Shown in pieces: positions 2,339-53,687 of a stretch of 64,000 nucleotides of DNA. The notes beneath the pieces were generated by a model. It searched no databases. It was not told the origin of the DNA and saw only the letters and a program-made list of their open reading frames with translations. The position numbers were made by a program, and so were the translations under genes. Source of the DNA: Candidatus Iainarchaeum sp. (GTDB lineage Archaea > Iainarchaeota > Iainarchaeia > Iainarchaeales > GCA-2688035); NCBI GenBank assembly GCA_028713935.1, contig JAQTNI010000001.1:1464-65463 (forward strand), given 5' to 3'. Position 1 is the stretch's first letter, and the number at the start of each line of letters is the position of its first letter.

Positions 2339-2758
2339 TTATTTTGCTCTTTCTGCTTTGCCTCTTTGTTTTGCAATTCTGTTTAATCTCTTTGTGGTAT
2401 TTCTGTCATATCTGCGTTCGACGTCCCTGTTCATAATAGGAGTATTCCCAGAGCCAATATTGGAAAGAGTTCTTCGGGTAGTCATAACTCTATCGCCTGG
2501 ACCTAAGAATAAAGAGGTTGCTTTTTTGTCCCCTGCTATGTAAACCTTTTCTGGATCATAGGTTCTTCTTTCGGCGTTGGCCGGCCGAACCATTTGCCTT
2601 GACCATTGTCTACGGCCAGTGTTCACTCCCCGAAAAGTTGCTGGTATTGTCTTGCCTGTAACTTTCAATCGCATCCAATTTATTCTTTGCCCTGTTGTCA
2701 GGGTTTTTCCAACCCGCCTTCTCTGCTTTTCTCTCTGGACTGGGCGTGTTATACTCAT
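2339..2758 (-). CDS. Arg/Lys-rich hypothetical protein, possibly nucleic-acid-binding, encoded antisense between L11 and L1
   Basis: 139 codons, ATG preceded by GGTGATTTT (SD-like), AGA/AAA codon usage matching neighbouring genes. About 20% R+K and no Cys. Local GC is clearly higher than its surroundings. No family recognised by eye. Confidence 0.45.
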   Translation of the reverse strand: MSITRPVQREKQRRRVGKTLTTGQRINWMRLKVTGKTIPATFRGVNTGRRQWSRQMVRPANAERRTYDPEKVYIAGDKKATSLFLGPGDRVMTTRRTLSNIGSGNTPIMNRDVERRYDRNTTKRLNRIAKQRGKAERAK

Positions 2759-3016
2759 AAAATCACCGGATAGATAATTATTGCCTAAGTTTTTAAGCTT
2801 TTCCGATTACTTTTTGTGTATATTAATTGGTTTTGTAAGTCTCTTTTTGAGACCGCAACTACCGCTTTTGGGATTGTTCAATTTGCACCTTGCAAATTGT
2901 TTCTTTTCCAACCTTTTTAAGGGCAGAATTGCTGGGCAATTGCGTTTTTCCTTGAAAAACGCTTCTTTTCCCGAGGCTTTTCTTTCCAAGAAAAGGCTCT
3001 GCGGGAGGTTTTTTGA

Positions 3017-4801: not shown

Positions 4802-5048
4802 AGCCTTCTCTTTTTTTTATTTTTTAAAAATGCCTTGTTTTTCCCACATTGCAAAAGCATTTGCTTTTGCGATGCGTCACAAAGCCCTGCTTTGCAACGA
4901 GGCTTTTGAAAGCGAGCATTGCGAAGCATTTTTCCCAAGGCTTTTTGCCTTGCAAAAAGGCTTTTGCGAGCGCTTCAAAAGGCTTTTGCCTAATTTTAAA
5001 TATTTAAACCAGCCTTAATTTTCACGCGTTACCAGGTTAAATATTGGC

Positions 5049-5320
5049 TTTTATATTCCAGAGGCAATAATTATTTTGGCATTGGTTTTTTTCAGGCTCA
5101 CCGAAAAAAACATTGTACTCAGGCAACTGGAGGTGGTTGGTAGCGTTTCAGCGGCAACCATTTTTTGCGATTGTTTGATTGACTAATGCCAGCTGCAGGG
5201 GAAATTGCTTCCTTGTTTTGGAACGTCCTTCCCAGGCGAAACTGGTTTAATCTCTGTATGAGAAATAGTCTCCAAAAAAAAGCAATTCCCTGCAGTACTT
5301 TATTTTTGAATTTTTTTCAG
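5049..5320 (+). ncRNA. Candidate structured non-coding RNA (unknown class) with TATA-like promoter and oligo-T terminator
   Basis: TTTTATATT at 5049-5057. GC-rich region with two stem-enclosed domains: GGCATT..AATGCC at 5076-5188, and a 16-bp long-range inverted repeat (5193-5210 pairs with 5280-5295). A T-run follows. There is no ORF here. Confidence 0.3.
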
Positions 5321-5911
5321 GATTGCCATGTTGAGTTCAAAAACTGAACTATAGCGAGCTGCTCTTGCTGTCAGCTGATTTGCTGTCAGCCAAATTGGGT
5401 CATTAGGTTGTGCTTGCCTTCTGATTCCTTGCCTTCGCAGGTCCCCCGCTTCTTCAAATGCCCTTCGGTAGTTTTGCCGAGCCTCTTGGGCAAGCATTAC
5501 GGCTTGTTTTGCTTTGGATTCAAGAAAAGATTTTTCTTTTATGGCAATGTCCAGGGTTTCCTCGCCCGGAAGCGCTGGAATCTTCATTTTTTTCAACTCC
5601 CGAGGCGAATTTGTGCTTCTGCCAAAATAATCAACTGAGGTTTTTTTTGCCAGAACTGGTTTTTTTCTGTTAATTGGTTCCTTTAATAATGGTGACTGTC
5701 GGAATCGAGAAATTTGTTCTTCTGGCAAGCCGCATTTTAAGGCAACCTGGGCATCTGTTAATCCGGGTTGCTGAAGCAGCTTAAATGCCCAGGCAATTTT
5801 TACTTCCTTTGGCTGTGTTGTGATGTCTGGATTTTTTGGCAAGACTTTTCTTTTTATTTTTCGCATAATTGCCATTTTAACCGCCTTGTTTTTTACTTTC
5901 AGCCTTTCCAT
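5300..5911 (-). CDS. Hypothetical protein with a possible HTH
   Basis: 203-aa ORF with neighbour-like codon usage. No family recognised. Confidence 0.4.
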   Translation of the reverse strand: MERLKVKNKAVKMAIMRKIKRKVLPKNPDITTQPKEVKIAWAFKLLQQPGLTDAQVALKCGLPEEQISRFRQSPLLKEPINRKKPVLAKKTSVDYFGRSTNSPRELKKMKIPALPGEETLDIAIKEKSFLESKAKQAVMLAQEARQNYRRAFEEAGDLRRQGIRRQAQPNDPIWLTANQLTARAARYSSVFELNMAILKKIQK

Positions 5912-24744: not shown

Positions 24745-24867
24745 TGCAAAACACTTGAGCTATTGTTTCAATGTTTCTCTGCTTGACATCGTGCCAGGGC
24801 TTTTGCCGAAGGCTAGACTTGCGAAGCAAGTCTTTCTTTCCCTGGGCTTTCTTTTTAAGAAAGGCCA

Positions 24868-25045
24868 GTGGGGTTACAGGGATTTGAACCCTGATCAACT
24901 GGTCGCTCATTATTTTACCCTGCCTTTTTGTTGTTTACCAAAGAAAAATGGTTCTTTTCTTTGGGCAACTTACACTTTCTTTTCTTGCCAAGAAAAGAAA
25001 GGGCAGGTCTGGAGCCAGTCGCACTGCCTGGTTATGCTATAACCC
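24868..25045 (-). tRNA. tRNA-Trp (anticodon CCA) with a ~105-nt intron in the anticodon loop
   Basis: Acceptor GGGGTTA/TAACCCC, D-stem GCAT/GTGC, anticodon stem ACTGG/CCAGT, loop CTCCAGA, T-arm CAGGG-TTCAAAT-CCCTG, discriminator A. Intron is roughly 24907-25011. Confidence 0.75.
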
Positions 25046-25264
25046 CGTTGGGATAATTGAAGAATTTAAAGTTTTTAAAATCAGAGGTTTTGCATTGCAA
25101 AACCTTTCTTTCCCAGGGCTTTCTTTTTTAAAGAAAGGCCTGCCAAAGTAGCTCACTTGTTGAGTGCATAAAACAACTTTGTTTTGTTGTGTTTTTAAAG
25201 ATATGGAATTTTTTATTTTTCAAATCCGTCAATTTAATATATTCTAATTGCGCTACTATTACTG

Positions 25265-28200
25265 GTGTTTGTTTTGGCTGACAAAAAAGGTTCTTCGGAA
25301 GCTGGAGAAGAGATTTTTTCAGATGTTTTTGGCGTTGACGAGGATGAAAAGCGCGCCAGGGAAAGGCTTGCCAAGGAAACAGCTGAAAAAGAAGCAAAGC
25401 AAAAAGCCTCAAAAGGCGAGAAAGAGGAAAAAGAATTGCCTTCTGAAAAAGAAGAGCCTGAAATTGTTGCCTTGAAGAAAACCCAAAAAAAGCCTGCCCA
25501 AAAAATTCCAGTTGAGGCCAAAGCCACTGTTACTGATTCTCCCGAGCAAAAGGAATTGAAGCAGAAAATCAAAAAGGTTATTCTGGCAAAGGCAGCAAAG
25601 GCCGCTGAAAAGGATTCTGCAAAAATTTTTGACAAGGAAATTGACATCAAGGAAAAAGGAGTTAAGGAAAAAGAAAAAGAAGAAGAGCCAGAGCCTGAAG
25701 AAGAAAACGAAAAAGAAGATTCAAAAGAAATTGTGCCAAAATTTGCCCTTAATTTTTTGCAGGATTCAGAAGGAAGCGTTTTCATTGGCAGGAAAACAAG
25801 TGTTTTCCAGGAATATGGCAATGAAGCAGGCCTGTATATTGGGAATATTGCAGAGCCTTCCTTTGAAGGAAAAAAAGTTTTATTGGATGGTTTAAATCCG
25901 CATGTTGTTTTTGTCTGCGGGGCAAGAGGCAGCGGAAAATGCCTTACTGGAGACACTCTAATTGCGCTTGAAGATGGTACAGTAAAGCCGATAAGAGAAC
26001 TGGAACATGATAATCAAAAAGTTCTTTCAATGGATTCTGAAATGAAAATTGTTGCCACTCAAAAAAGCGGTTTTTTTAAAAGGAGAGTAAATAAGATTCT
26101 GGAAGTTAACTTAAAAAGTGGCAAAAAGATTAGGTTGACCCCTGAGCATCCTTTGTTTACAATGCAAGGCTGGAAGCCTGCGCAGGAGTTGAGAGAAGGA
26201 AGCAGAATTGCTGCTGTTAATAAACAGGTTGGGCTTGGTTTTTCAAGTAGCAGGCAGGAAAGCGTTTGTTATTCTGCCGCAAGGGCAAAATTAATGCAAA
26301 TTAATTTGCTTAACAAGGATGAGTTGGTGCAAAATGCTTCTTCAAATATTTTTTGGGACGAAATAACTGAAAAAACAGAATTATCAGGAGAATTTGAAGT
26401 TTTTGATATCAGTGTTCCAACACACCACAATTTTGTTGCAAATGATATTATTGTCCACAACAGTTATCTGCTTGGAGTGCTTGCTGAAGAGCTTGCCTTG
26501 AAGAATCCCAATGTCGGCCTTATTGTAATCGACCCTGTAGGGGTTTTTTGGGGAATGAGGCATCCTAACAAGGAAGAAAAAGAGCTTGAGGCTCTTGCAA
26601 AAACAGGCCTTCTTCCGAACGGCCTGAATAATCTCAAAGTTTTTATTCCAAAGGGAATGAAGGACAAGGTTCCGAAAAACACTTTTGATGCGGCTTTCAG
26701 CATGCCTGCTTCTCTTCTAACTGCAGAAGACTGGTGCCTAACTTTTGGCATTGACAGGTTTTCCCCAAGCGGCCTGCTCCTTGAAAAAGTTTTGCACAAG
26801 ACAAAGCACGGCTATAAGACAAAAGAAGGAAAATATGTAAAATCAGAGGATGTTTTTGATTTGGAGGACATTATTGAATGCCTGCATAATGACAATGAAA
26901 TAAATTCAGCCGAGCTTGGCTATAAGGCCGATTCAATAAGGGCCCTTGCTTCCAGGTTTGATGCCGCAAAAGCCTGGGGAGTTTTTGATGAAAGAGGAAC
27001 TCCTTTGATTGAAATTTCAAAGGAAAACCAGTTGACAATTATTGACACTTCTTTTTTGGATGACAATGTTTCCGCGCTAATAATCGGGATTCTTGCAAGA
27101 AGAATTCTTGCCGCGAGAAAATTAAGCACTCGCAGGGAAGCTGCTTCAAAATTCAAGGATGATTCTGTTGAAAACCTAATGGAATTGGGAATCCCTCCCA
27201 CATGGCTGTTTATTGATGAGGCACACACTTTGATTCCAAGCGGAAACATGAAAACTCCTGCAAGCAGTGCCCTTGTTGAATATGTGAAGCAGGGAAGGCA
27301 GCCTGGCTGCAGCCTTGTTTTTGCAACACAGCAGCCGAGCGCAATTGACACCCATGTTTTAAGCCAGCTTGACATTATTGTGGCGCACAAGCTTGTTTTT
27401 GACGATGACATAAAGGCAGTTTACAAGAGAACTCCAACTATTATTCCAAAGCAATACAAGAACAGCAATTTTATCAAAACACTGCCAGTTGGAATGGGAA
27501 TTGTTGGAGATAGAAGAGAAGAAACCTCGCGCGCTTTTGTAATGAAAATCAGGCCAAGAATGTCACAGCACGAAGGCAGGGAAGCAGTTACTTCTGAAAG
27601 GTCTTCACAGGTTTTTGACAAATCCAAGGTTCTTGCCCTTGCAATTGGAATGGCTTATGCCCAGATTGAAAGAAAGCCGACAGAAGCCTCTTACATTAGC
27701 CAGATTGTCCAGACTCTTAATACAAAATACAAGTCAACTTTGCAGCTTTCAGATGTTCTTGATGCGCTTGAAAAAAAAGGCGTCGGAATCAATCCCAAAA
27801 CTTCTGTTTTAAGCATTCCGGACGAGGAAGCAGAGCATGAAGTAGTGGAAGAAGAAGTCCGTGAAACAGAAGAAGAAGTGCAAAAAGAAGTGAAATCAGT
27901 TTCACCAGAAGAAAGCATTTCACTAATGGCTTTTCCAGCCAATCTTCAGGAAGAATCAGCAAGAAGGCTTTTTGACAGGCTGAGAAAGAAAAAAACTCTC
28001 GGCTTGTTTGGAAAAGAAGAGCTGATTGAAAAAATTTCCTTGAAATATTTGCCAATTTTCCATGTTACTTTCAATGTTTTCAATGAAAAAGGCTCTTTCA
28101 ATATTGCAGAGGCCTATGTTGATTCCCATTCAGGGGAATTTTTGAATTTTGATTTTGAACAAAAACAATTTGTTGAATCCCACGGCTTAAGCCTGCTTTC

Positions 28201-28657
28201 GGAAATGGGCACTTTGGAATCAAGAATCCTGCTTTTGCTTTCCGAAAAAAAATCCTCTTTTGAAGACCTTCAAAACAGGCTTGGAGAAGAAGAAAAAAGC
28301 ATTGAAAAGGCAATTGATTCGCTTATGGAAGCAAATGCAATTGCGCTTGAACAGTCAAAAGAAAAAGACTGGTTTTTTTTGAAAACAAAAATTGATTTGC
28401 CAAAAAGCCCCTTGCATTCCCTGCTTACAAGCGTGAAAAAACTGCCAGTGGAAGAAATTTCCGCTTCCAATCTTGAAAAGCCGCAGTTTGACAAAACAAA
28501 ATTCCAGGAGGTTTTTTCAAAAATCTGGGGAAAAGTCCAGATAAAAAGCATTTCAGAAGTTTTTTTGCCAAGATATGAGGCAATTATCAGGAAACAGGAC
28601 AATTCAATAAGGGCAATTTCAGTTGACGCCTACTCAGGAAAAGAAATTGCGGACTAA
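25265..28657 (+). CDS. HerA/FtsK-superfamily ATPase (DUF87-like) with an acidic Lys/Glu-rich N-terminal extension, an intein in the P-loop and a ~370-aa C-terminal extension
   Basis: Walker A is GARGSGK[intein]SYLLG. Walker B LFIDEAHTLIP. HerA-type ATQQPSAIDTHVLSQLDIIVAHKL. Confidence 0.7.
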   Translation: MFVLADKKGSSEAGEEIFSDVFGVDEDEKRARERLAKETAEKEAKQKASKGEKEEKELPSEKEEPEIVALKKTQKKPAQKIPVEAKATVTDSPEQKELKQKIKKVILAKAAKAAEKDSAKIFDKEIDIKEKGVKEKEKEEEPEPEEENEKEDSKEIVPKFALNFLQDSEGSVFIGRKTSVFQEYGNEAGLYIGNIAEPSFEGKKVLLDGLNPHVVFVCGARGSGKCLTGDTLIALEDGTVKPIRELEHDNQKVLSMDSEMKIVATQKSGFFKRRVNKILEVNLKSGKKIRLTPEHPLFTMQGWKPAQELREGSRIAAVNKQVGLGFSSSRQESVCYSAARAKLMQINLLNKDELVQNASSNIFWDEITEKTELSGEFEVFDISVPTHHNFVANDIIVHNSYLLGVLAEELALKNPNVGLIVIDPVGVFWGMRHPNKEEKELEALAKTGLLPNGLNNLKVFIPKGMKDKVPKNTFDAAFSMPASLLTAEDWCLTFGIDRFSPSGLLLEKVLHKTKHGYKTKEGKYVKSEDVFDLEDIIECLHNDNEINSAELGYKADSIRALASRFDAAKAWGVFDERGTPLIEISKENQLTIIDTSFLDDNVSALIIGILARRILAARKLSTRREAASKFKDDSVENLMELGIPPTWLFIDEAHTLIPSGNMKTPASSALVEYVKQGRQPGCSLVFATQQPSAIDTHVLSQLDIIVAHKLVFDDDIKAVYKRTPTIIPKQYKNSNFIKTLPVGMGIVGDRREETSRAFVMKIRPRMSQHEGREAVTSERSSQVFDKSKVLALAIGMAYAQIERKPTEASYISQIVQTLNTKYKSTLQLSDVLDALEKKGVGINPKTSVLSIPDEEAEHEVVEEEVRETEEEVQKEVKSVSPEESISLMAFPANLQEESARRLFDRLRKKKTLGLFGKEELIEKISLKYLPIFHVTFNVFNEKGSFNIAEAYVDSHSGEFLNFDFEQKQFVESHGLSLLSEMGTLESRILLLLSEKKSSFEDLQNRLGEEEKSIEKAIDSLMEANAIALEQSKEKDWFFLKTKIDLPKSPLHSLLTSVKKLPVEEISASNLEKPQFDKTKFQEVFSKIWGKVQIKSISEVFLPRYEAIIRKQDNSIRAISVDAYSGKEIAD
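25940..26461 (+). mobile_element. Mini-intein (174 aa, no homing-endonuclease domain) inserted after the Walker A lysine
   Basis: Starts Cys-LTGDTLIALEDG (Hint block A), ends ...NDIIVHN followed by Ser +1. Removing it restores GxxxxGKS. Confidence 0.8.
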
Positions 28658-32475: not shown

Positions 32476-33510
32476 TTATTCCATGCTTTGCAAAAGCCCC
32501 ACTCTTCCCAGTTCCAAAAAATATTCGTTTTCAGGGTTATTGATTCCTTTTTTGCATTTTGTGTAGGTCGCAAGAATAACATAGATTGCGTGCCCGAGTT
32601 TTATGTAAGTTGGCAATGCTTCAAGTTCTTTCTGTGTTAGCGGAATAATTTTTTGGTATTCTTCCAAAACGATTTCAATGTTTTTTTCAGTTTTGCTTTT
32701 GCTTTCCTGCTCAAAAAGCACAGTGCAAGCCATTACCGCAAGCTCCTGTATTCTTGGATAATAATTTGCACATGCAAAATCAATAAGCCACAATTTTCCG
32801 TTTTTATCCTTCATTATGTTTGTTTTTGTCAAATCGCCATGAACAAAACAATGGGGCAATTTGTTTATTTCAAGTGCTTTTAAATCTTTCACCAATGGAA
32901 GAATTTTTTTCAGGTCTTCAGAATCCAGAAATTTTTTTGCTATTCGGAATTCCTTCAAAAAACTTGTTATTGCCCAATGGTCATAAACAAACTTTGGCTT
33001 TATTTTCATGCTGTTTATTATTGCGGCCTGCTTTGCCAAAAACCTTATTTCCAAATCGGCCAGTTTTTCTTTTGATTCAAACAAAGTTTTGCCTTCAATA
33101 AAATCCATTGCAACAAGCCGCAATTTTTTTCCCCTGACATTTAAAATCTGCAAATGCCTGTTTTTTGCCTCCAATAATTTTGGAGTGACCACATTGCTTT
33201 CCAAGGCCTTTTCCATGATTTTGACATATCTCTTGCATTCTTGGAGCGTTCTAAAATCAGCAAAGACTTTGACAAAAAAATTCCCTTTTTTTGTTTGCAG
33301 GGCAAAATTAAAATCTTCATAGCCAATTGCAACAAGCCTGTTTGAAACAAAAGCGCCAAGCCCAAAGCATTTGCAAACAGCTTCAGAAATATCTTCCAAT
33401 CTGCCTTTGAAGCCAATCCTTTTTTTGAATAAATCCCCCTCAGCCAAGCCAATCACTTTTTTTATTAGCAATCTGTTTACCAAAGATTCAAGTTCTTTTT
33501 CTTTGGGCAA
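32476..33510 (-). CDS. Aminoglycoside/choline-kinase-like phosphotransferase (APH family); start uncertain
   Basis: HGDLTKTNIMKDKNGKLWLIDF catalytic loop. The annotated TTG start lies inside a tRNA-associated repeat module. Confidence 0.6.
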   Translation of the reverse strand: MPKEKELESLVNRLLIKKVIGLAEGDLFKKRIGFKGRLEDISEAVCKCFGLGAFVSNRLVAIGYEDFNFALQTKKGNFFVKVFADFRTLQECKRYVKIMEKALESNVVTPKLLEAKNRHLQILNVRGKKLRLVAMDFIEGKTLFESKEKLADLEIRFLAKQAAIINSMKIKPKFVYDHWAITSFLKEFRIAKKFLDSEDLKKILPLVKDLKALEINKLPHCFVHGDLTKTNIMKDKNGKLWLIDFACANYYPRIQELAVMACTVLFEQESKSKTEKNIEIVLEEYQKIIPLTQKELEALPTYIKLGHAIYVILATYTKCKKGINNPENEYFLELGRVGLLQSME

Positions 33511-33550
33511 CTTACACTTTCTTTTTCTTTCAAAGAAAAAGGAAGGGCAG

Positions 33551-33711
33551 TGCGTCCGCCGGGATTCGAACCCGGGTTACGAGCTCTTTCCTGCTTCAAT
33601 TTTGTTTATTATTTGTTGAAGTTCTTTCTTTTGGGCAACTTACACTTTTCTTTCTTTCAAGAAAGAAAAGGGCAGTGGGAAGCTCGAATCCTACCGCTAG
33701 ATTACAGACGC
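33551..33711 (-). tRNA. tRNA-Gly (anticodon CCC) with a ~90-nt intron
   Basis: Acceptor GCGTCTG/CGGACGC (one G-U pair), D-loop AGCGGTAGG, anticodon stem CGAGC/GCTCG, loop TTCCCAC, T-arm CCGGG-TTCGAAT-CCCGG. Intron is roughly 33585-33674. Confidence 0.75.
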
Positions 33712-35671: not shown

Positions 35672-36088
35672 TCAGTTTTGCCCTATTCCACAAAGTTTTT
35701 TCCATTGCTCTTCCACTGTCCTTTCGTTCACATATGGCTTGTGGTGCCTGAATCCGCCTCCAAATCCTGCTGGGATGTGCAGTAATTCGTGAATCAGGGT
35801 TTTTGTTTTGTCATCCTCGCTTAGCCTGTCAAATTTTTCCGAAAGCAGTTCAATCACATAAAAAGGCTCTGTTTTCATTCCAAGCTGCATTGCTTTTCCT
35901 AACCCATGTATGCGTGCAATTGTCCTTCTTGTTTTTGTCCCTGCACTTTTAAGACAGGCAATTCTTTCAGGCGCAATATGGTGAAAACCGAGCTTTTCAA
36001 CAAGTTCCCTTGCCTTCAAAGTCCATTCTTCTGAAAAAGCGTATTTCACAAAAAAAACCTTATAACATTTCAGAAATTTTTTTTCCAA
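35672..36088 (-). CDS. Putative zinc metallopeptidase (HExxH)
   Basis: HELLHIPAGFGGGFRHH motif. Confidence 0.45.
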   Translation of the reverse strand: MEKKFLKCYKVFFVKYAFSEEWTLKARELVEKLGFHHIAPERIACLKSAGTKTRRTIARIHGLGKAMQLGMKTEPFYVIELLSEKFDRLSEDDKTKTLIHELLHIPAGFGGGFRHHKPYVNERTVEEQWKKLCGIGQN

Positions 36089-45837: not shown

Positions 45838-46108
45838 TTTCACCAAGATTTTAAAAAACCATATCAATAATACTTTTTGAGTTGGGAGCAAGGTGGGCAT
45901 GAACAAGGTTCATGCCTGCCAAATTTTTACTTCTCCAAAAGAAGCAATTAAAAACCACTTGATTCCTAATTTTAACACTGCAGAGGTGGCAAGGCCTTTC
46001 TTTGCCTTGCAAAGAAAGCCCTGGGAAAGAAATACTTTTTGCCAATGCAAAAAGTGCTTCGCAAAGGAAACCCCTGGGAAAAAATTGCCGCCAATAAAAG
46101 AAAATCAT

Positions 46109-46302
46109 GCAGAGGTGGCAGAACTTGGTAAATGCGCCGGCCTTGAGAAGCCTTTCTTTCTAAAGAAAGAAAGCCTTGGGAAAGAAACAGTTTGGCTCTG
46201 CCAAACTGTAGTTCGCTTCGCTTACATTAGAAAAAAAGATTATTATTTTTCAGGCGAGCCGGTGTCCGAAAGGGCGCGTGGGTTCAAATCCCATCCTCTG
46301 CG
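46109..46302 (+). tRNA. tRNA-Ser (anticodon TGA) with a ~108-nt intron and long variable arm
   Basis: Acceptor GCAGAGG/CCTCTGC, anticodon stem CCGGC/GCCGG, loop CTTGAGA, variable arm TGTCCGAAAGGGCGC, T-arm GTGGG-TTCAAAT-CCCAT. Intron is roughly 46149-46256. Confidence 0.7.
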
Positions 46303-46314
46303 CAATCTTTTTTT

Positions 46315-50622: not shown

Positions 50623-50868
50623 GCGGGGGTGGCAGAGCGGTCTAATGCGCACGCCTGGAAAGGCCTTTTCTTGCAAGCAAGAAAAGCCCTGGGAAAAGAA
50701 CAATTTGCTTTGCAAATTGGTTGATTCCCCGGTTCTCCCCAAAGGATAATTTCAGTTAGAAATTTTTTTCTTTGGGGTGGACTGCAGACCTTTCTTTTTA
50801 TTAAAAAGAAAGGGATATAGAGAGCGTGTTCTCGAAAGGGAGCGCGAGTTCAAATCTCGTCCCCCGCG
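50623..50868 (+). tRNA. tRNA-Ser (anticodon GGA) with a ~160-nt intron; its 3' end is the integration target (attL)
   Basis: GCGGGGGTGGCAGAGCGGTCTAATGCG 5' half, anticodon stem CACGC/GCGTG, loop CTGGAAA, long variable arm, T-arm GCGAG-TTCAAAT-CTCGT, acceptor 3' CCCCCGC. Confidence 0.75.
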
Positions 50869-51724: not shown

Positions 51725-52168
51725 GTGCTTGGGCTGATTCAAAAGATAAATATAAAAATACGGGAAGTGCAATATATGGCCATGGCACGAACACTCAAAC
51801 AAAGAAAAAACCGAAGAAAAACAGGTGGCGTACTTGCTGTCAGCCCCAATCCACGTGAGGTATATCGTGAAGCTGATGGTTGGAGTGTTTTTCCAGATGT
51901 TCGGTACTATGTGCCTGGTAAGCGCATGACTAATTTTCAAGTGGCTCTCCGATTTTCCAATAAAAAAGGTTCCGATCGTTGGCGCTATAACCAATTTTTG
52001 AAACAACATGGTTTTATGGTAACAATGGGCGGTGATATTGTAAAGTCGCTTCCCGGCAAGAAATTTAGAATGCTAACAAAAACAGAGAAAGACAAAGTGT
52101 TACGCTTGTTAAAGTCGGGCTGGGCAGTATCTTATGGCCCAAGGCCAAAAAATACACGACAAAAATAA
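51725..52168 (+). CDS. Conserved hypothetical protein, paralog A, ending 8 nt before the att repeat region
   Basis: About 55% identical to the ORF at 53250-53687. Shared motifs RRKTGGVL, FPDVRY, GSDRWxYNQFLK, GDIVKxLPG and C-terminal SGWAxxYGPxPK. Confidence 0.5.
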   Translation: MLGLIQKINIKIREVQYMAMARTLKQRKNRRKTGGVLAVSPNPREVYREADGWSVFPDVRYYVPGKRMTNFQVALRFSNKKGSDRWRYNQFLKQHGFMVTMGGDIVKSLPGKKFRMLTKTEKDKVLRLLKSGWAVSYGPRPKNTRQK

Positions 52169-52279: not shown

Positions 52280-52822
52280 ATGCTTGCGAGTGAATTGTTT
52301 TCTTCAAAGGAGAGAATTGGGCTTATCAAGATTCTTTTTTATACGCCCAATTTGGAATTAAAAGTTAGGTCTCTTGCTCGGTTTGCAAAAGTAAGCCCTG
52401 CTCTTGTTTCCGGCACGATTGCGATTCTTAAGAAACAAGGAGCTATAAACAAAGGCAAAATTGATTTGTTGCATCCTTCTGCAAGGGCCTTGAAAATACT
52501 ATTGAATATTGAAAGCCTCACCTCTGCCAAATTTGTTCCTGAAATAAGAAGCATTTTCAAGGATTGCAATGGCATTGGTTTGTATGGTAGTTGGGCAAAC
52601 GGAACCAATTCAAAAGACAGTGATTTGGATTTTTGGGTAAAATCAGAATCTGAAAGCGAGGAAAAGTCGGCTAAAATAAGTCGTTTTGTTAAGCAGAAGC
52701 TTGGCTTGGAAGCCAGCATAATTATTCTTACACAAAAAAGGCTGAAAGAATTGAAAGAAAAGGATTTTGTTTTTTATTCAATGCTGTACAATTGTTTTTT
52801 GTTGTGGGGCGAAGGAATATGA
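52280..52822 (+). CDS. Minimal nucleotidyltransferase (MNT) with N-terminal wHTH
   Basis: GSWANGTNSKDSDLDF pol-beta-like nucleotidyltransferase motif. Confidence 0.7.
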   Translation: MLASELFSSKERIGLIKILFYTPNLELKVRSLARFAKVSPALVSGTIAILKKQGAINKGKIDLLHPSARALKILLNIESLTSAKFVPEIRSIFKDCNGIGLYGSWANGTNSKDSDLDFWVKSESESEEKSAKISRFVKQKLGLEASIIILTQKRLKELKEKDFVFYSMLYNCFLLWGEGI

Positions 52823-53235
52823 TTGATTTTAATGAGTGCCTTGCAAAAGGCCTTTTGGCAAGAATTCCCGCTTCAAGGGAAAAAGCTTTGCAGAGTATTG
52901 AGAAAGCAAAAGAACTATTGGAAGAAGCAAAAGCAAGCCTTGAAGAGGAAAGAATCAATTCCACAGTAATAGTTGCCTATCTTGCAATTTTTCATGCTGC
53001 AAGGGCACTGCTTTTCAAAGATGGTTACAGGGAAAAAAGCCACGAATGCGTAATCCGCTATCTGGAAGAAAAATATCCTGAAATAAAACCAGGGCAGATT
53101 GAAGCCTTGGAAAAATACAAAAGTGAAAGAACCCACACACAATACGATGTGAGTTATAATCCAAGCGAAGAACAAGCAGAAAAAATGATAAAATTCACGG
53201 AAAAATTCATCCAAACAATAGAAGAAATGATTTAA
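52819..53235 (+). CDS. HEPN-domain protein (partner of the MNT)
   Basis: IVAYLAIFHAARALLFKDGYREKSHE HEPN pattern. ATGA overlap with the MNT gene. Confidence 0.65.
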   Translation: MIDFNECLAKGLLARIPASREKALQSIEKAKELLEEAKASLEEERINSTVIVAYLAIFHAARALLFKDGYREKSHECVIRYLEEKYPEIKPGQIEALEKYKSERTHTQYDVSYNPSEEQAEKMIKFTEKFIQTIEEMI

Positions 53236-53249
53236 GCTGGTTCGCTTCT

Positions 53250-53687
53250 ATGCCTTGTTTTTTGGAAAATTATAAATATGGGCATGTGCTTAATACTATT
53301 GGTAGTTTAATGCGCGGTGTAAACAAAAATAGGAGAAAAACTGGTGGCGTACTCCGTGTTGGGAAACGACCACTTGAAGTTGGGATTTCGTTGGAAGATA
53401 GCGGTTTTCATGTTTTTCCCGATGTTCGATACCGCAGTGACCGAATGAGTAGATTTAAAACTTCTCGCAGGTTTTCTAACAAAATAGGTTCAGATCGCTG
53501 GCACTATAACCAGTTTTTAAAACCTCGCGGCTTTTGGATTACCCAAGCGGGCGATATTGTAAAACCCCTTCCGGGCAATAAATTTAGGTTTTTAAAGCTA
53601 TCCGAATTTCGGAAAGTTAGGGATTTGTTATGGTCGGGTTGGGCAAAGAGATACGGCCCAAAACCAAAAACAACTAAGCGAAAATAG
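53250..53687 (+). CDS. Conserved hypothetical protein, paralog B, ending just before the att repeat
   Basis: See paralog A. The start is probably the internal MRGVNKNRRK near 53310. Confidence 0.5.
   Translation: MPCFLENYKYGHVLNTIGSLMRGVNKNRRKTGGVLRVGKRPLEVGISLEDSGFHVFPDVRYRSDRMSRFKTSRRFSNKIGSDRWHYNQFLKPRGFWITQAGDIVKPLPGNKFRFLKLSEFRKVRDLLWSGWAKRYGPKPKTTKRK

What the first reader, a model, noticed from the sequence alone, without database searches (positions are those of the whole stretch)
46010..46302. tRNA-Ser(TGA) intron and its 5' flank share a three-part module (hairpin, CTGGGAAAGAAA, small hairpin)
Upstream flank: GGCCTTTCTTTGCcttgGCAAAGAAAGCC-CTGGGAAAGAAATAC-TTTTTGCcaatGCAAAAA. Intron: GCCTTTCTTTCTaaAGAAAGAAAGCC-TTGGGAAAGAAACAG-TTTGGCtctGCCAAA. 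The same layout recurs in the tRNA-Ser(GGA) intron (GGCCTTTTCTTGCaagcAAGAAAAGCC-CTGGGAAAAGAACAA-TTTGCtttGCAAA). Two different serine tRNAs 4.5 kb apart therefore carry paralogous introns, distinct from the Trp/Gly-type module.
Basis: seen in the sequence. Interest (0 to 1): 0.6.

Follow-up and report, generated by a model that had tools for sequence, protein, structure and literature searches.

The report
Mirror-repeat hairpin cassette around archaeal tRNAs
The shared intron/flank module is real and belongs to a widespread repeat family of DPANN archaea in which a purine stretch after a hairpin is a co-varying mirror image of the hairpin's purine arm, the sequence signature of a three-stranded (triplex) fold that has not been described for tRNA introns.

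Summary
The window (an Iainarchaeota-like DPANN archaeon) holds 11 copies: in four tRNA introns, in 5' flanks, directly after the discriminator base of tRNA-Trp and tRNA-Gly, and in two intergenic spacers. Collection scans found well over 100 further copies across DPANN phyla.

The motif 'CTGGGAAAGAAA' is not independent. Its two linker bases pair with the two bases before GCC (129/131 Watson-Crick, four pair types). The purine run after GGG repeats the hairpin's purine arm in reverse order. Run lengths and G positions co-vary (permutation 0/10000; up to 14/14 positions in strongly asymmetric tracts).

A mirror relation cannot come from Watson-Crick pairing or from copying by a polymerase. It is the code of an antiparallel purine-motif triplex (A.A-U/T, G.G-C). 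The 'Trp/Gly-type' module has the same architecture with a different linker.

The cassettes are mobile or turn over: a close relative lacks the Trp intron. Yet the Trp flank cassettes are 100% conserved between the two genomes. Whether the fold acts in RNA or in single-stranded DNA is unresolved, and function is inferred only. Rfam and the searchable literature describe nothing like it.

The parts
45980..45991 (+). 12-nt exact duplicate (GCAGAGGTGGCA) of the first 12 nt of tRNA-Ser(TGA). It directly abuts the 5' flank cassette.
   Evidence: Read. The same 12-mer lies at 46109-46120. ARAGORN was misled into calling a 'tRNA-Glu' at 45980-46303.
45992..46062 (+). Type A cassette in the 5' flank of tRNA-Ser(TGA). 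Hairpin 1 is 45992-46022 (pyrimidine run TTTCTTT 45997-46003, purine arm AAAGAAA 46011-46017, C.C mismatch 45995/46019). GGG is 46023-46025, mirror run AAAGAAA 46026-46032, hairpin 2 46033-46055, GCTTCGC mini-hairpin 46056-46062.
   Evidence: MFE -28.2 kcal/mol, z -4.1; the mirror run is left unpaired by Watson-Crick folding
46109..46302 (+). tRNA-Ser(TGA) with a canonical 37/38 intron at 46148-46256.
   Evidence: Rfam tRNA 40.5 bits. BHB central helix nt 32-35 CUUG with intron CAGG 46251-46254 (read).
46148..46228 (+). Type A cassette at the 5' end of the Ser(TGA) intron. Hairpin 1 is 46148-46177 (pyrimidine run TTTCTTTCT 46153-46161, purine arm 46164-46172). GGG is 46178-46180, mirror run AAAGAAA 46181-46187, hairpin 2 46188-46208, conserved box TAGTTCGCTTCGCTTACATT 46209-46228.
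   Evidence: the same extended element occurs in L093 Leu-CAA intron, L061 Arg-GCG intron, L092 and L002
50623..50868 (+). tRNA-Ser(GGA) with a 37/38 intron at 50661-50822.
   Evidence: ARAGORN with introns; sequence read.
50661..50719 (+). Type A cassette at the 5' end of the Ser(GGA) intron. Pyrimidine run TTTTCTT 50666-50672, purine arm AAGAAAA 50679-50685, GGG 50691-50693, mirror run AAAAGAA 50694-50700 (an asymmetric 4,2 pattern that is mirrored), hairpin 2 50701-50719.
50763..50813 (-). Type-B-like cassette lying antisense in the 3' part of the Ser(GGA) intron. On the tRNA sense strand it reads TTTTTTTCTTT - linker - CCTTTCTTTTT - ATT - AAAAAGAAAGG, which is the pyrimidine-motif (U.A-U) strand order.
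25086..25141 (-). Type A cassette in the 5' flank of tRNA-Trp, upstream of a TTTAAAT box. Mirror run AAAGAAA 25111-25105.
   Evidence: 56/56 identical in the related genome L002.
24952..25007 (-). Type B cassette at the 5' end of the tRNA-Trp intron (intron 25008-24904). Pyrimidine run TTTCTTTTCTT 25000-24990, purine arm 24986-24975, linker TGTAAGTTGCCC 24974-24963, mirror run AAAGAAAAGAA 24962-24952.
   Evidence: The whole intron is absent from the orthologous tRNA-Trp of L002.
24816..24868 (-). Type A cassette starting immediately after the discriminator base (24869) of tRNA-Trp. Mirror run AAAGAAAG 24839-24832, hairpin 2 24831-24817.
   Evidence: Hairpin 1 plus mirror run is 37/37 identical in L002, and hairpin 2 shows a compensatory A:T to G:C change.
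33622..33675 (-). Type B cassette at the 5' end of the tRNA-Gly(CCC) intron (intron 33675-33586). Pyrimidine run TTTTCTTTCTT 33669-33659, mirror run AAAAGAAAGAA 33632-33622.
   Evidence: BHB read: central helix UUCC/GGAA 4 of 4 pairs, flanking helix UGC/GCA.
33493..33550 (-). Type B cassette starting immediately after the discriminator base (33551) of tRNA-Gly. Pyrimidine run TTCCTTTTTCTTT 33544-33532, mirror run AAAGAAAAAGAA 33504-33493.
2942..2999 (-). Type A cassette in the L11-L1 spacer, upstream of an unannotated minus-strand region. Pyrimidine run TTTTCTT 2994-2988, mirror run AAAAGAAG 2969-2962, hairpin 2 2962-2942.
4920..4963 (-). Type A cassette with homopolymer tracts (T5/A5/A5). It lies within a short array of related hairpins (about 4850-5010) between the convergent genes L12 (+) and ORF 5300-5911 (-).

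Best explanation
The module is one member of a large family of short (about 45-110 nt) repeated cassettes of DPANN archaea.

Anatomy. Each cassette reads 5' to 3' as follows:
- a hairpin whose 5' arm is all pyrimidine and whose 3' arm is all purine. In the serine type the hairpin is closed at its base by 2-3 co-varying pairs, a G-C pair and a conserved C.C mismatch;
- a short connector: GGG in the serine type, GTGTAAGTTGCCC in the Trp/Gly type, and at least ten others;
- a second purine run that is the mirror image of the hairpin's purine arm, with the same length and the same G positions;
- often a small GC-capped hairpin.

Inferred fold. The second purine run folds back along the hairpin, antiparallel to the purine arm. 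It forms A.A-U(T) and G.G-C triples, an intramolecular purine-motif triplex. The result is a compact, self-contained three-stranded rod.

Inferred way of working. Because the fold is entirely local, the cassette can sit next to RNA-processing sites without disturbing the tRNA.
- In introns it begins at intron nucleotide 1-2, and its basal helix supplies the helix that flanks the 5' splice-site bulge of the bulge-helix-bulge motif.
- In 3' trailers it begins right after the discriminator base. After RNase Z cleavage it would then be the structured 5' end of the downstream RNA in ORF-tRNA-cassette-ORF strings.

The cassettes spread and turn over as DNA (intron gain or loss between close relatives), but individual copies are kept by selection.

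Shown: the family, its distribution, the base pairing, the three-way co-variation, intron presence/absence and in-situ conservation.
Inferred: that a triplex physically forms, that it forms in RNA rather than in single-stranded DNA, and the protective or insulating role.
For: 1. Repeats. There are 11 copies in the window and more than 100 elsewhere. They are concentrated in Iainarchaeota, Micrarchaeota, Aenigmatarchaeota, Woesearchaeota and Nanoarchaeia MAGs.

2. Mirror co-variation, serine type. In 45 informative unique copies, anchored identity between the parallel complement of the pyrimidine arm and the second purine run is 291/357, against a permutation mean of 234 and maximum of 259 (0 of 10000 permutations reach it). 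C positions are matched by G in 41/65 cases, against a permutation mean of 17.7.

3. Asymmetric tracts. These exclude simple antiparallel pairing. Examples: T3CTCT3CT3 with A3GAGA3GA3 (13/13); T4CT5CT2C with A4GA5GA2G (14/14); purine arm A7GA4 with mirror run A4GA7; L216 14/14; L198 13/13.

4. Hairpin-first, unbiased test. Among 131 asymmetric hairpins, 28 have a near-full mirror copy downstream and 7 a near-full direct copy, the latter in low-complexity loci.

5. Triple columns. T/A/A 809 and C/G/G 236, with only 38 columns (about 4%) showing any other combination, some of them artefacts of extension into the linker.

6. The relation holds across unrelated linkers (35 unique non-serine-type copies) and in all 7 Trp/Gly-type copies.

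7. Within one clearly homologous element found in Ser, Leu and Arg introns, the run patterns (3,3), (4,2) and (4,3) change in all three tracts together.

8. The second purine run has no Watson-Crick partner nearby and is left single-stranded by MFE folding.

9. The strand order is fixed: pyrimidine-purine-purine 84, purine-pyrimidine-pyrimidine 5.

10. The basal pairs co-vary: 127/131 and 129/131 Watson-Crick, with four pair types at the second pair.

11. Sense bias: about 17 sense to 3 antisense in introns, and 31 to 12 relative to neighbouring ORFs.

12. Selection in situ. Between the window and L002 the Trp flank cassettes are 56/56 and 37/37 identical. The tRNA exons are 35/37 and 31/35 and the outer flanks 49/71 and 6/17. 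Hairpin 2 shows a compensatory change.

13. Mobility. The 105-nt Trp intron is precisely absent in L002.

14. The triplex code matches the literature. Purine third strands bind antiparallel by reverse Hoogsteen A.A-U and G.G-C (PMC7583470, PMC13541005). Molecular dynamics finds that Mg2+ helps stabilise antiparallel all-RNA GAA triplexes (PMC9631886).
Against: - No physical evidence: everything rests on sequence co-variation.
- Experimental support for purine-motif triplexes containing RNA strands is conflicting (PMC7583470, citing Semerad and Maher 1994).
- In the serine type only GGG separates the paired stem base from the mirror run, so the chain must turn very sharply and climb about four base-pair levels. 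The geometry is tight.
- G.U wobble pairs are almost absent: 3 T:G in 1015 hairpin 1 pairs, and no enrichment next to hairpin 2. That is unusual for an RNA structure and fits DNA at least as well.
- Copies with long T6-T7 arms usually have a shorter A4-A5 mirror run. Only 19 of 45 informative copies match over the whole arm.
- The two 5' flank copies lie upstream of TATA-like boxes. Thirteen copies from all sources sit in divergent spacers, where transcription is not assured.
- At least one intron copy is antisense.
Confidence: 0.5

Rival explanations
1. The same three-stranded fold forms, but it acts in DNA. It would form on the single-stranded non-template or lagging strand, or as H-DNA in the duplex. 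There it would serve the spread of the cassette (a recognition structure for an unknown single-strand transposase or recombinase, i.e. the unknown mechanism of archaeal tRNA intron transposition) or local control of transcription or termination. Presence in introns would then reflect only that insertions able to form a BHB survive.
For: - Purine-motif triplexes are well established for DNA and doubtful for RNA (PMC7583470).
- Hairpin stems are 99% Watson-Crick with almost no G.U.
- Hairpin 2 arms are perfect palindromes with no wobble enrichment.
- Copies occur upstream of promoters, in divergent spacers and in both orientations.
- Tandem arrays resemble REP/BIME-like DNA repeats.
- An intron is present in one genome and absent in a close relative.
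- Archaeal intron transposition is thought to proceed at the DNA level (PMC4090602).
- The 12-nt duplication of the tRNA 5' end beside the flank copy looks like an insertion or rearrangement scar.
Against: - No transposase or HUH enzyme is among the 30 window ORFs scanned, including those next to the cassettes.
- No consistent target-site duplication: GA at the Trp intron, A at the Ser intron, 12 nt at the flank copy.
- Strong sense bias in introns, and exact placement at RNA cleavage sites (intron nt 1-2; immediately after the discriminator).
- The Trp flank copies are conserved in situ more strongly than the tRNA exons. This points to a host-level function and not to a decaying mobile relic.
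Confidence: 0.27
2. The second purine run is a competitor strand. The pyrimidine arm can pair either with the first or with the second purine run, giving two mutually exclusive Watson-Crick hairpins, i.e. an RNA switch.
For: In quasi-symmetric tracts (T3CT3, T3CT3CT) the second run can pair antiparallel with the pyrimidine arm over 6-10 bp. MFE folding of one Trp/Gly-type copy prefers such a pairing (window 24948-25006).
Against: - A competitor should be a direct repeat of the first purine arm. In every clearly asymmetric case it is the mirror instead. Antiparallel pairing is limited to 6-9 bp while the mirror match covers 11-14 positions.
- The length of the second A-run tracks the second T-run, which antiparallel pairing does not predict.
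Confidence: 0.04
3. No three-strand contact exists. The cassette is a hairpin plus an A-rich tail that serves as a protein-binding or processing signal, or as a bidirectional archaeal terminator (T-rich on both strands). The resemblance of the tail to the arm would reflect low-complexity composition.
For: - Conserved GCC / GCC-NN-GGG core.
- Pyrimidine runs resemble archaeal pyrimidine-rich terminators (own knowledge). Several 3' flank copies carry runs of five or more T.
- Homopolymer copies (T6/A4) do not keep equal lengths.
Against: - Permutation among copies, which preserves composition, never reaches the observed match (0/10000).
- Shuffled windows give no hits.
- One protein could not read tracts that differ between copies of one genome.
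- A terminator inside tRNA introns would be harmful.
Confidence: 0.1
4. The three strings are chance similarity between A/T-rich low-complexity stretches.
For: The 12-mer with one mismatch is not very rare in this A-rich window: 41 matches against 26 expected.
Against: The full architecture recurs 11 times here and more than 100 times elsewhere, with co-variation and orthologous conservation.
Confidence: 0.01

Closest known systems
Transposed bulge-helix-bulge tRNA introns of Thermoproteales (Fujishima et al. 2010, as summarised in PMC4090602)
   Same: [quoted passage not shown] Introns are gained and lost between relatives. They are removed by the splicing endonuclease, and the mechanism of spread is unknown.
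   Different: The lineage is different (DPANN, not Crenarchaeota). The cassette also lives outside introns: directly 3' of tRNAs, in 5' flanks and in intergenic arrays. Its defining feature, a co-varying mirror purine run, is not mentioned in the review read here (PMC4090602); the original paper was not read.
Intramolecular purine-motif triplex / H-DNA (homopurine-homopyrimidine mirror repeats; PMC11667243, PMC7583470)
   Same: A homopurine/homopyrimidine helix plus a mirror-repeated purine strand. The strand order pyrimidine-purine-purine gives the antiparallel third strand that the motif requires. The A.A and G.G code is obeyed position by position.
   Different: H-DNA needs only the mirror repeat in duplex DNA. 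Here an inverted repeat is added, so one strand alone can supply all three strands. The elements are short, numerous, tied to tRNA genes and mostly on the transcribed sense strand.
ENE / MALAT1-type RNA triple helices next to tRNA-like structures (PMC7583470)
   Same: A genomically encoded triple-helix-forming element lies beside a (t)RNA that is cut out by tRNA-processing enzymes. Interrupting G/C positions set the register.
   Different: ENEs use two U-rich strands and one A-rich 3' end (U.A-U, parallel). Here the sense strand has one pyrimidine and two purine strands (antiparallel purine motif). Only the antisense copy at 50763-50813 has the ENE-like strand order. ENEs are eukaryotic or viral, and the 2020 review (PMC7583470) does not mention archaea.
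Bacterial REP/BIME elements
   Same: Short, abundant, imperfectly palindromic extragenic repeats. They are often tandem, lie in intercistronic and 3' regions, and are conserved as structures.
   Different: No GTAG-type head and no RAYT gene were seen. REPs have no mirror-repeat third tract and do not live in tRNA introns.

Membership tests
Archaeal BHB (splicing-endonuclease) tRNA intron | Interrupts a tRNA gene, and its removal restores a canonical tRNA. | tested here: met
   Rfam tRNA hits span the interrupted genes. ARAGORN with introns finds Ser(GGA), Trp and Gly. The orthologous tRNA-Trp of L002 is uninterrupted exactly at this site. This holds for the four intron copies only.
Archaeal BHB (splicing-endonuclease) tRNA intron | Two 3-nt bulges separated by a 4-bp helix at the exon-intron junctions. 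| tested here: inconclusive
   Hand check, taking nt 32-35 against intron positions n-5 to n-2. Ser-TGA CUUG/CAGG 4 of 4 (one G.U); Gly UUCC/GGAA 4 of 4 plus flanking helix UGC/GCA; Trp 3 of 4; Ser-GGA 3 of 4. The helix beyond the 5' bulge is supplied by the cassette's own hairpin, so the form is relaxed. The rule for bulge positions is from my own knowledge.
Archaeal BHB (splicing-endonuclease) tRNA intron | The 5' flank copy (45992-46062) is also an intron. | tested here: not met
   Both putative junctions lie in the same 12-nt direct repeat. The only self-complementary 4-mer (TGCA) leaves 13 unpaired nt between the required helices. The tRNA is complete from 46109.
Purine-motif (antiparallel) intramolecular triplex | Homopurine/homopyrimidine Watson-Crick helix. 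| tested here: met
   Hairpin 1 arms are all pyrimidine and all purine over the matched stretch. 1005 Watson-Crick pairs against 10 non-Watson-Crick in 132 copies.
Purine-motif (antiparallel) intramolecular triplex | The third strand is purine-rich and is the mirror of the duplex purine strand, with an A.A / G.G code in 1:1 register. | tested here: met
   permutation 0/10000; columns T/A/A 809 and C/G/G 236; asymmetric tracts matched over up to 14 of 14 positions.
Purine-motif (antiparallel) intramolecular triplex | The connector is long enough to let the third strand fold back. | tested here: inconclusive
   Trp/Gly type: 8-13 nt, which is ample. Serine type: only GGG follows a stem base that is itself paired. 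This is feasible only with a sharp turn.
Purine-motif (antiparallel) intramolecular triplex | Physical formation (Mg2+-dependent melting transition, N7 protection). | not testable with these tools
   No structure-probing or 3D RNA/DNA prediction tool is available.
ENE-type U.A-U RNA triple helix | Two U-rich strands clamp an A-rich tract, with a parallel Hoogsteen strand. | tested here: not met
   The sense strand has one pyrimidine and two purine tracts in 10 of 11 window copies. Only the antisense copy at 50763-50813 has the pyrimidine-pyrimidine-purine order.
Any Rfam family | Covariance-model match at or near the gathering score. | tested here: not met
   Only tRNA passes the threshold. 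At E up to 5 the cassette regions give scattered chance hits well below threshold.
REP/RAYT or IS200/IS605-type single-strand DNA elements | An associated HUH (Y1) transposase gene and a conserved cleavage tetranucleotide. | tested here: inconclusive
   No such domain in the 30 window ORFs scanned. The other loci and the remaining window ORFs were not scanned.
C/D box sRNA carried in the tRNA-Trp intron (as in Euryarchaeota) | C box RUGAUGA and D box CUGA near the intron ends. | tested here: not met
   No RUGAUGA in intron 25008-24904 (read), and no snoRNA family in the Rfam scan.

The most novel reading that the evidence does not exclude
DPANN archaea carry, in hundreds of copies, a natural intramolecular purine-motif triple helix of 7-14 consecutive A.A-U and G.G-C triples. 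No such long purine-type triplex is listed among natural RNAs in the reviews read. This three-stranded fold would be the functional core of their tRNA introns and tRNA-adjacent spacers. It would act either as an end-protecting or insulating RNA structure, or as the single-strand structure recognised by the long-sought machinery that moves archaeal tRNA introns.
Probability: 0.3. Interest if true: 0.9.

Novelty: new variant of a known kind. Interest (0 to 1): 0.72.

Why it matters
Mirror co-variation is a rare and specific signal. It cannot be produced by polymerase copying or by Watson-Crick pairing, so selection must be acting on a three-strand contact.

If the fold forms in RNA, it would be the first long purine-type RNA triple helix found in nature and the first RNA triplex element reported from archaea, with more than a hundred natural sequence variants ready for biophysics.

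If it forms in DNA, it offers a concrete handle on an open question: how bulge-helix-bulge tRNA introns spread between tRNA genes.

Either way it explains what the long introns and odd flanks of DPANN tRNA genes are made of. It also gives annotators a recognisable marker for interrupted tRNA genes that standard tools miss; the default tRNA scan found only 1 of the 5 tRNAs in this window.

Tried and rejected
- **Viral contig scan** with the Trp/Gly-type linker: 29 hits, all chance matches in unrelated sequence.
- **Rfam**, at gathering thresholds and at permissive E-values on three cassette regions: nothing but tRNA.
- **Literature**: six searches found no description of the cassette or of triplexes in archaeal introns.
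- **Strand-of-function tests** were uninformative. G.U versus A.C counts in the triple columns; G.U counts and energies of hairpin 2 on both strands, 64 versus 47 G.U; mismatch spectrum of hairpin 1, T:G 3 and C:A 1; the pair next to hairpin 2.
- **Watson-Crick partner** for the mirror run within 400 nt: none beyond self-overlap.
- **The 5' flank copy as a second, non-canonical intron** using the 12-nt repeat: rejected because no BHB is possible.
- **BHB between leader and trailer of tRNA-Trp or tRNA-Gly** (permuted-type processing): no complementary leader sequence seen.
- **Transposase among window ORFs**: none in the 30 scanned.
- **ARAGORN's 'tRNA-Glu 45980-46303'**: rejected as an artefact of the 12-nt duplicate plus hairpin 1 mimicking a D-arm.
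- **Minor-groove (pseudoknot loop-3-like) docking of the A-rich run**: considered. The topology fits, but it does not predict G over G-C in 1:1 register.
Full report
**1. Observation**

In exact coordinates:
- The 5' flank cassette of tRNA-Ser(TGA) is 45992-46062.
- The Ser(TGA) intron cassette is 46148-46208, followed by a conserved box to 46228.
- The Ser(GGA) intron cassette is 50661-50719.

Rfam and ARAGORN run with introns place the tRNAs at 46109-46302 and about 50623-50868. The canonical 37/38 introns are 46148-46256 and 50661-50822, so the cassette begins at intron nucleotide 1-2.

The default tRNA scan found only one of the five tRNAs in the window. The window is archaeal, with about 39% G+C. 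It is syntenic, at 76-90% DNA identity, with a contig of Candidatus Iainarchaeum sp. STB_123 (L002).

**2. More copies and a second type**

Reading the other interrupted tRNAs and scanning for the motif showed eight further copies in the window.
- Serine-type ('type A') cassettes lie 5' of tRNA-Trp (25141-25086, minus strand), immediately 3' of tRNA-Trp (24868-24816), in the L11-L1 spacer (2999-2942) and in a short array near 4963-4920.
- 'Type B' cassettes have the linker GTGTAAGTTGCCC. They lie in the Trp intron (25007-24952), in the Gly intron (33675-33622) and immediately 3' of tRNA-Gly (33550-33493).
- A type-B-like copy lies antisense in the 3' part of the Ser(GGA) intron (50763-50813).

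A generic scanner for this architecture gave 30 seed matches in the window, at 13 places of which 11 are these cassettes, and none in 20 shuffles.

**3. What the middle 'motif' really is**

Folding and a count over 131 unique type A copies show that the two bases between GCC and GGG are paired with the two bases preceding the first GCC. The first pair is Watson-Crick in 127/131 copies. The second is Watson-Crick in 129/131, with four pair types (A-T 81, G-C 25, C-G 17, T-A 6) against 58 expected on shuffling.

Read from its base upward, hairpin 1 is therefore:
- 2-3 co-varying pairs;
- a G-C pair;
- a conserved C.C mismatch;
- a C-G pair;
- a pyrimidine arm paired to a purine arm.

The purine run after GGG is not an independent motif. 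It repeats the purine arm in reverse order, which is the same as the parallel complement of the pyrimidine arm.

Examples:
- TTTTCTT / AAGAAAA / AAAAGAA in the Ser(GGA) intron.
- T4CT6 / A6GA4 / A4GA6 (L012).
- T5CT4CCC with A5GA4GGG (L075).
- T4CT3CTCT with A4GA3GAGA (L111).
- T3CTCT3CT3 with A3GAGA3GA3 (L075, 13/13).
- T4CT5CT2C with A4GA5GA2G (L061, 14/14).

**4. Statistics**

- **Permutation test.** Over 45 informative unique type A copies, anchored identity is 291/357. Permuting the third tracts among copies gives a mean of 234 and a maximum of 259 (0 of 10000). C positions are matched by G in 41/65 cases, against a mean of 17.7.
- **Hairpin-first test.** This test makes no assumption about the third tract. 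Of 131 clearly asymmetric pyrimidine/purine hairpins, 28 have a near-full-length mirror copy downstream and 7 a near-full direct copy. The latter lie in low-complexity loci.
- **Three-way columns.** T/A/A 809 and C/G/G 236, with only 38 columns (about 4%) showing any other combination, some of them artefacts of extension into the linker.
- **Other linkers.** The relation holds with at least ten unrelated linkers (35 unique non-type-A copies) and in all seven type B copies.
- **Strand order.** The order is fixed: pyrimidine-purine-purine 84, purine-pyrimidine-pyrimidine 5. The loci were ascertained with a type A pattern, so only the non-type-A copies are free of that bias.
- **Co-variation inside one homologous element.** The same extended element (hairpin 1, mirror run, hairpin 2, GGTTCGCTTCGCTYAC box) occurs in a Ser(TGA) intron (window), a Leu(CAA) intron (L093), an Arg(GCG) intron (L061), at another site in L002, and upstream of a protein gene (L092). 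Its runs are (3,3), (4,2) or (4,3), and they change in all three tracts together.

**5. Why this points to three strands**

A mirror repeat cannot be made by copying and cannot form Watson-Crick pairs with either arm. The reverse complement of the third tract is absent nearby. Antiparallel pairing of the third tract with the pyrimidine arm is limited to 6-9 bp in asymmetric tracts, while the mirror match spans 11-14 positions.

The order pyrimidine arm, loop, purine arm, connector, purine run places the last run antiparallel to the purine arm, with A over A-U and G over G-C. That is the code of the purine-motif triplex with reverse Hoogsteen pairing (PMC7583470, PMC13541005).

The run ends where the homopurine part of the stem ends. 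On the complementary strand the same DNA has the order needed for a pyrimidine-motif (U.A-U, C+.G-C) triplex. That is what the antisense copy in the Ser(GGA) intron would present in the tRNA transcript.

**6. Caveats on the fold**

- Nothing physical was measured.
- Evidence for purine-motif triplexes with RNA strands is conflicting (PMC7583470). Simulations find that Mg2+ helps stabilise antiparallel GAA third strands on RNA duplexes (PMC9631886).
- In type A only GGG links the paired stem base to the mirror run, which demands a sharp turn.
- Copies with T6-T7 arms usually carry a shorter A4-A5 run, and only 19/45 informative copies match over the full arm.
- Hairpin 1 has 1005 Watson-Crick pairs against 10 non-Watson-Crick (T:G 3, C:A 1).
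- Hairpin 2 is present in 48/134 copies, with 40 different arms, mostly GC-NNN-GC tops. It shows no wobble enrichment.

The near-absence of G.U has two readings: constraint by the third strand, or a structure that matters in DNA.

**7. Where the cassettes sit**

- In introns they start at nucleotide 1-2.
- By a hand BHB check, the central helix is 4 of 4 pairs for Ser(TGA) (CUUG/CAGG) and for Gly (UUCC/GGAA, plus flanking helix UGC/GCA). It is 3 of 4 for Trp and Ser(GGA). In type A introns the helix beyond the 5' bulge is the base of hairpin 1.
- Cassettes begin 4-11 nt beyond the ARAGORN-called 3' end of tRNAs for Trp and Gly here. The same holds for Ser, Leu, Ile, His, Met and Ser genes in other genomes. 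Some of those may be T-loop introns, which I did not validate.
- tRNA-Gly and tRNA-Trp lie in same-strand strings of ORF, tRNA, cassette, ORF.
- The 5' flank copies lie upstream of TATA-like boxes.
- Against crude ORF calls the cassettes are sense 31 to 12. Thirteen lie in divergent spacers and 8 in convergent ones.

**8. Mobility and selection**

The orthologous tRNA-Trp of L002 lacks the 105-nt intron precisely, with an ambiguous GA at the junction. The Ser(GGA) intron of another archaeon (L016) has the same position and length but different cassette content.

Yet both Trp flank cassettes are identical between the window and L002 (56/56 and 37/37). The tRNA exons differ (35/37 and 31/35) and the outer flanks are 49/71 and 6/17. 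Hairpin 2 shows a compensatory A:T to G:C change.

So copies turn over as DNA, but some are held by selection or by gene conversion.

**9. The 5' flank copy of Ser(TGA)**

It is preceded by an exact 12-nt duplicate of the tRNA's 5' end (45980-45991 = 46109-46120). It cannot be an intron: both junctions fall in the repeat and no BHB can be drawn. I read it as a complete cassette in the leader or promoter region and the duplicate as a rearrangement scar. This is inference.

**10. Comparison with what is known**

- The closest process is the large-scale transposition of BHB introns in Thermoproteales, whose mechanism is unknown (PMC4090602).
- The closest structures are intramolecular purine-motif triplexes and H-DNA, and, functionally, the ENE/MALAT1 triple helices next to tRNA-like elements (PMC7583470).
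- The cassette fails the ENE strand order and has no Rfam family.
- It was not found in six literature searches.

**11. Verdict**

Best explanation (confidence 0.5): a family of self-folding, triplex-forming cassettes that make up DPANN tRNA introns and tRNA-adjacent spacers.

Main rival (0.27): the same fold acting in single-stranded DNA, possibly in intron mobility. The function is inferred, not shown.

Noticed in passing
window 45980-45991 and 46109-46120: An exact 12-nt duplicate of the 5' end of tRNA-Ser(TGA) lies 128 nt upstream, directly before the flank cassette. A TATA-like AATTAAAAAC box sits about 30 nt upstream of the duplicate. The duplicate makes ARAGORN call a false 'tRNA-Glu' at 45980-46303.
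   Followed up: partly
window 25008-24904 versus L002 3105-3440: The 105-nt tRNA-Trp intron is precisely absent from the orthologous gene of Ca. Iainarchaeum sp. STB_123. Both flank cassettes are identical in the two genomes.
   Followed up: yes
window 2339-2790 (minus strand): A 690-nt gap between the ribosomal protein genes L11 and L1 holds an Arg-rich 139-aa ORF with no Pfam match and no Rfam match. A cassette and a TTAATATA box lie just upstream on the same strand. It may be an unrecognised structured RNA gene or a small basic protein.
   Followed up: partly
window 25265-28657 (+): HerA-like ATPase (DUF87, HerA_C) interrupted by an intein (Intein_splicing/Hint, residues about 223-400).
   Followed up: no
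window 51725-52168 and 53250-53687 (+): Two paralogous 145-147 aa proteins with no Pfam match (shared RKTGGVL...FPDVRY...RFSNK.GSDRW.YNQFLK motifs). They bracket a nucleotidyltransferase-HEPN pair (52280-53235), a possible mobile toxin-antitoxin cassette.
   Followed up: partly
window 4850-5010 (minus strand): A short array of related GC-capped hairpins (GCTTCGC, GCAAAAGCC...) surrounds the homopolymer cassette, between the convergent genes L12 and ORF 5300-5911. Tandem arrays of the same kind occur in L005, L016, L026 and L084.
   Followed up: partly
L092 about 755-900: The same extended element as in the Ser(TGA) intron lies outside any detectable tRNA, about 100 nt upstream of a GGAGG-ATG start of a protein gene.
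   Followed up: partly
L008 and L034 (contigs binned as Candidatus Falkowbacteria): Genuine cassettes occur on two contigs assigned to a CPR bacterium. This is more likely mis-binned DPANN DNA than a bacterial occurrence.
   Followed up: no
L037, L062, L106, L111 (cassette directly after GGTTCAAA): Cassettes follow the T-loop sequence GGTTCAAA, which suggests non-canonical T-loop introns. ARAGORN reports these as 3' flanks or misses them.
   Followed up: no
window 35672-36088 (-): ORF with a 'putative phage metallopeptidase' domain (PF18894) next to a DJ-1/PfpI gene.
   Followed up: no
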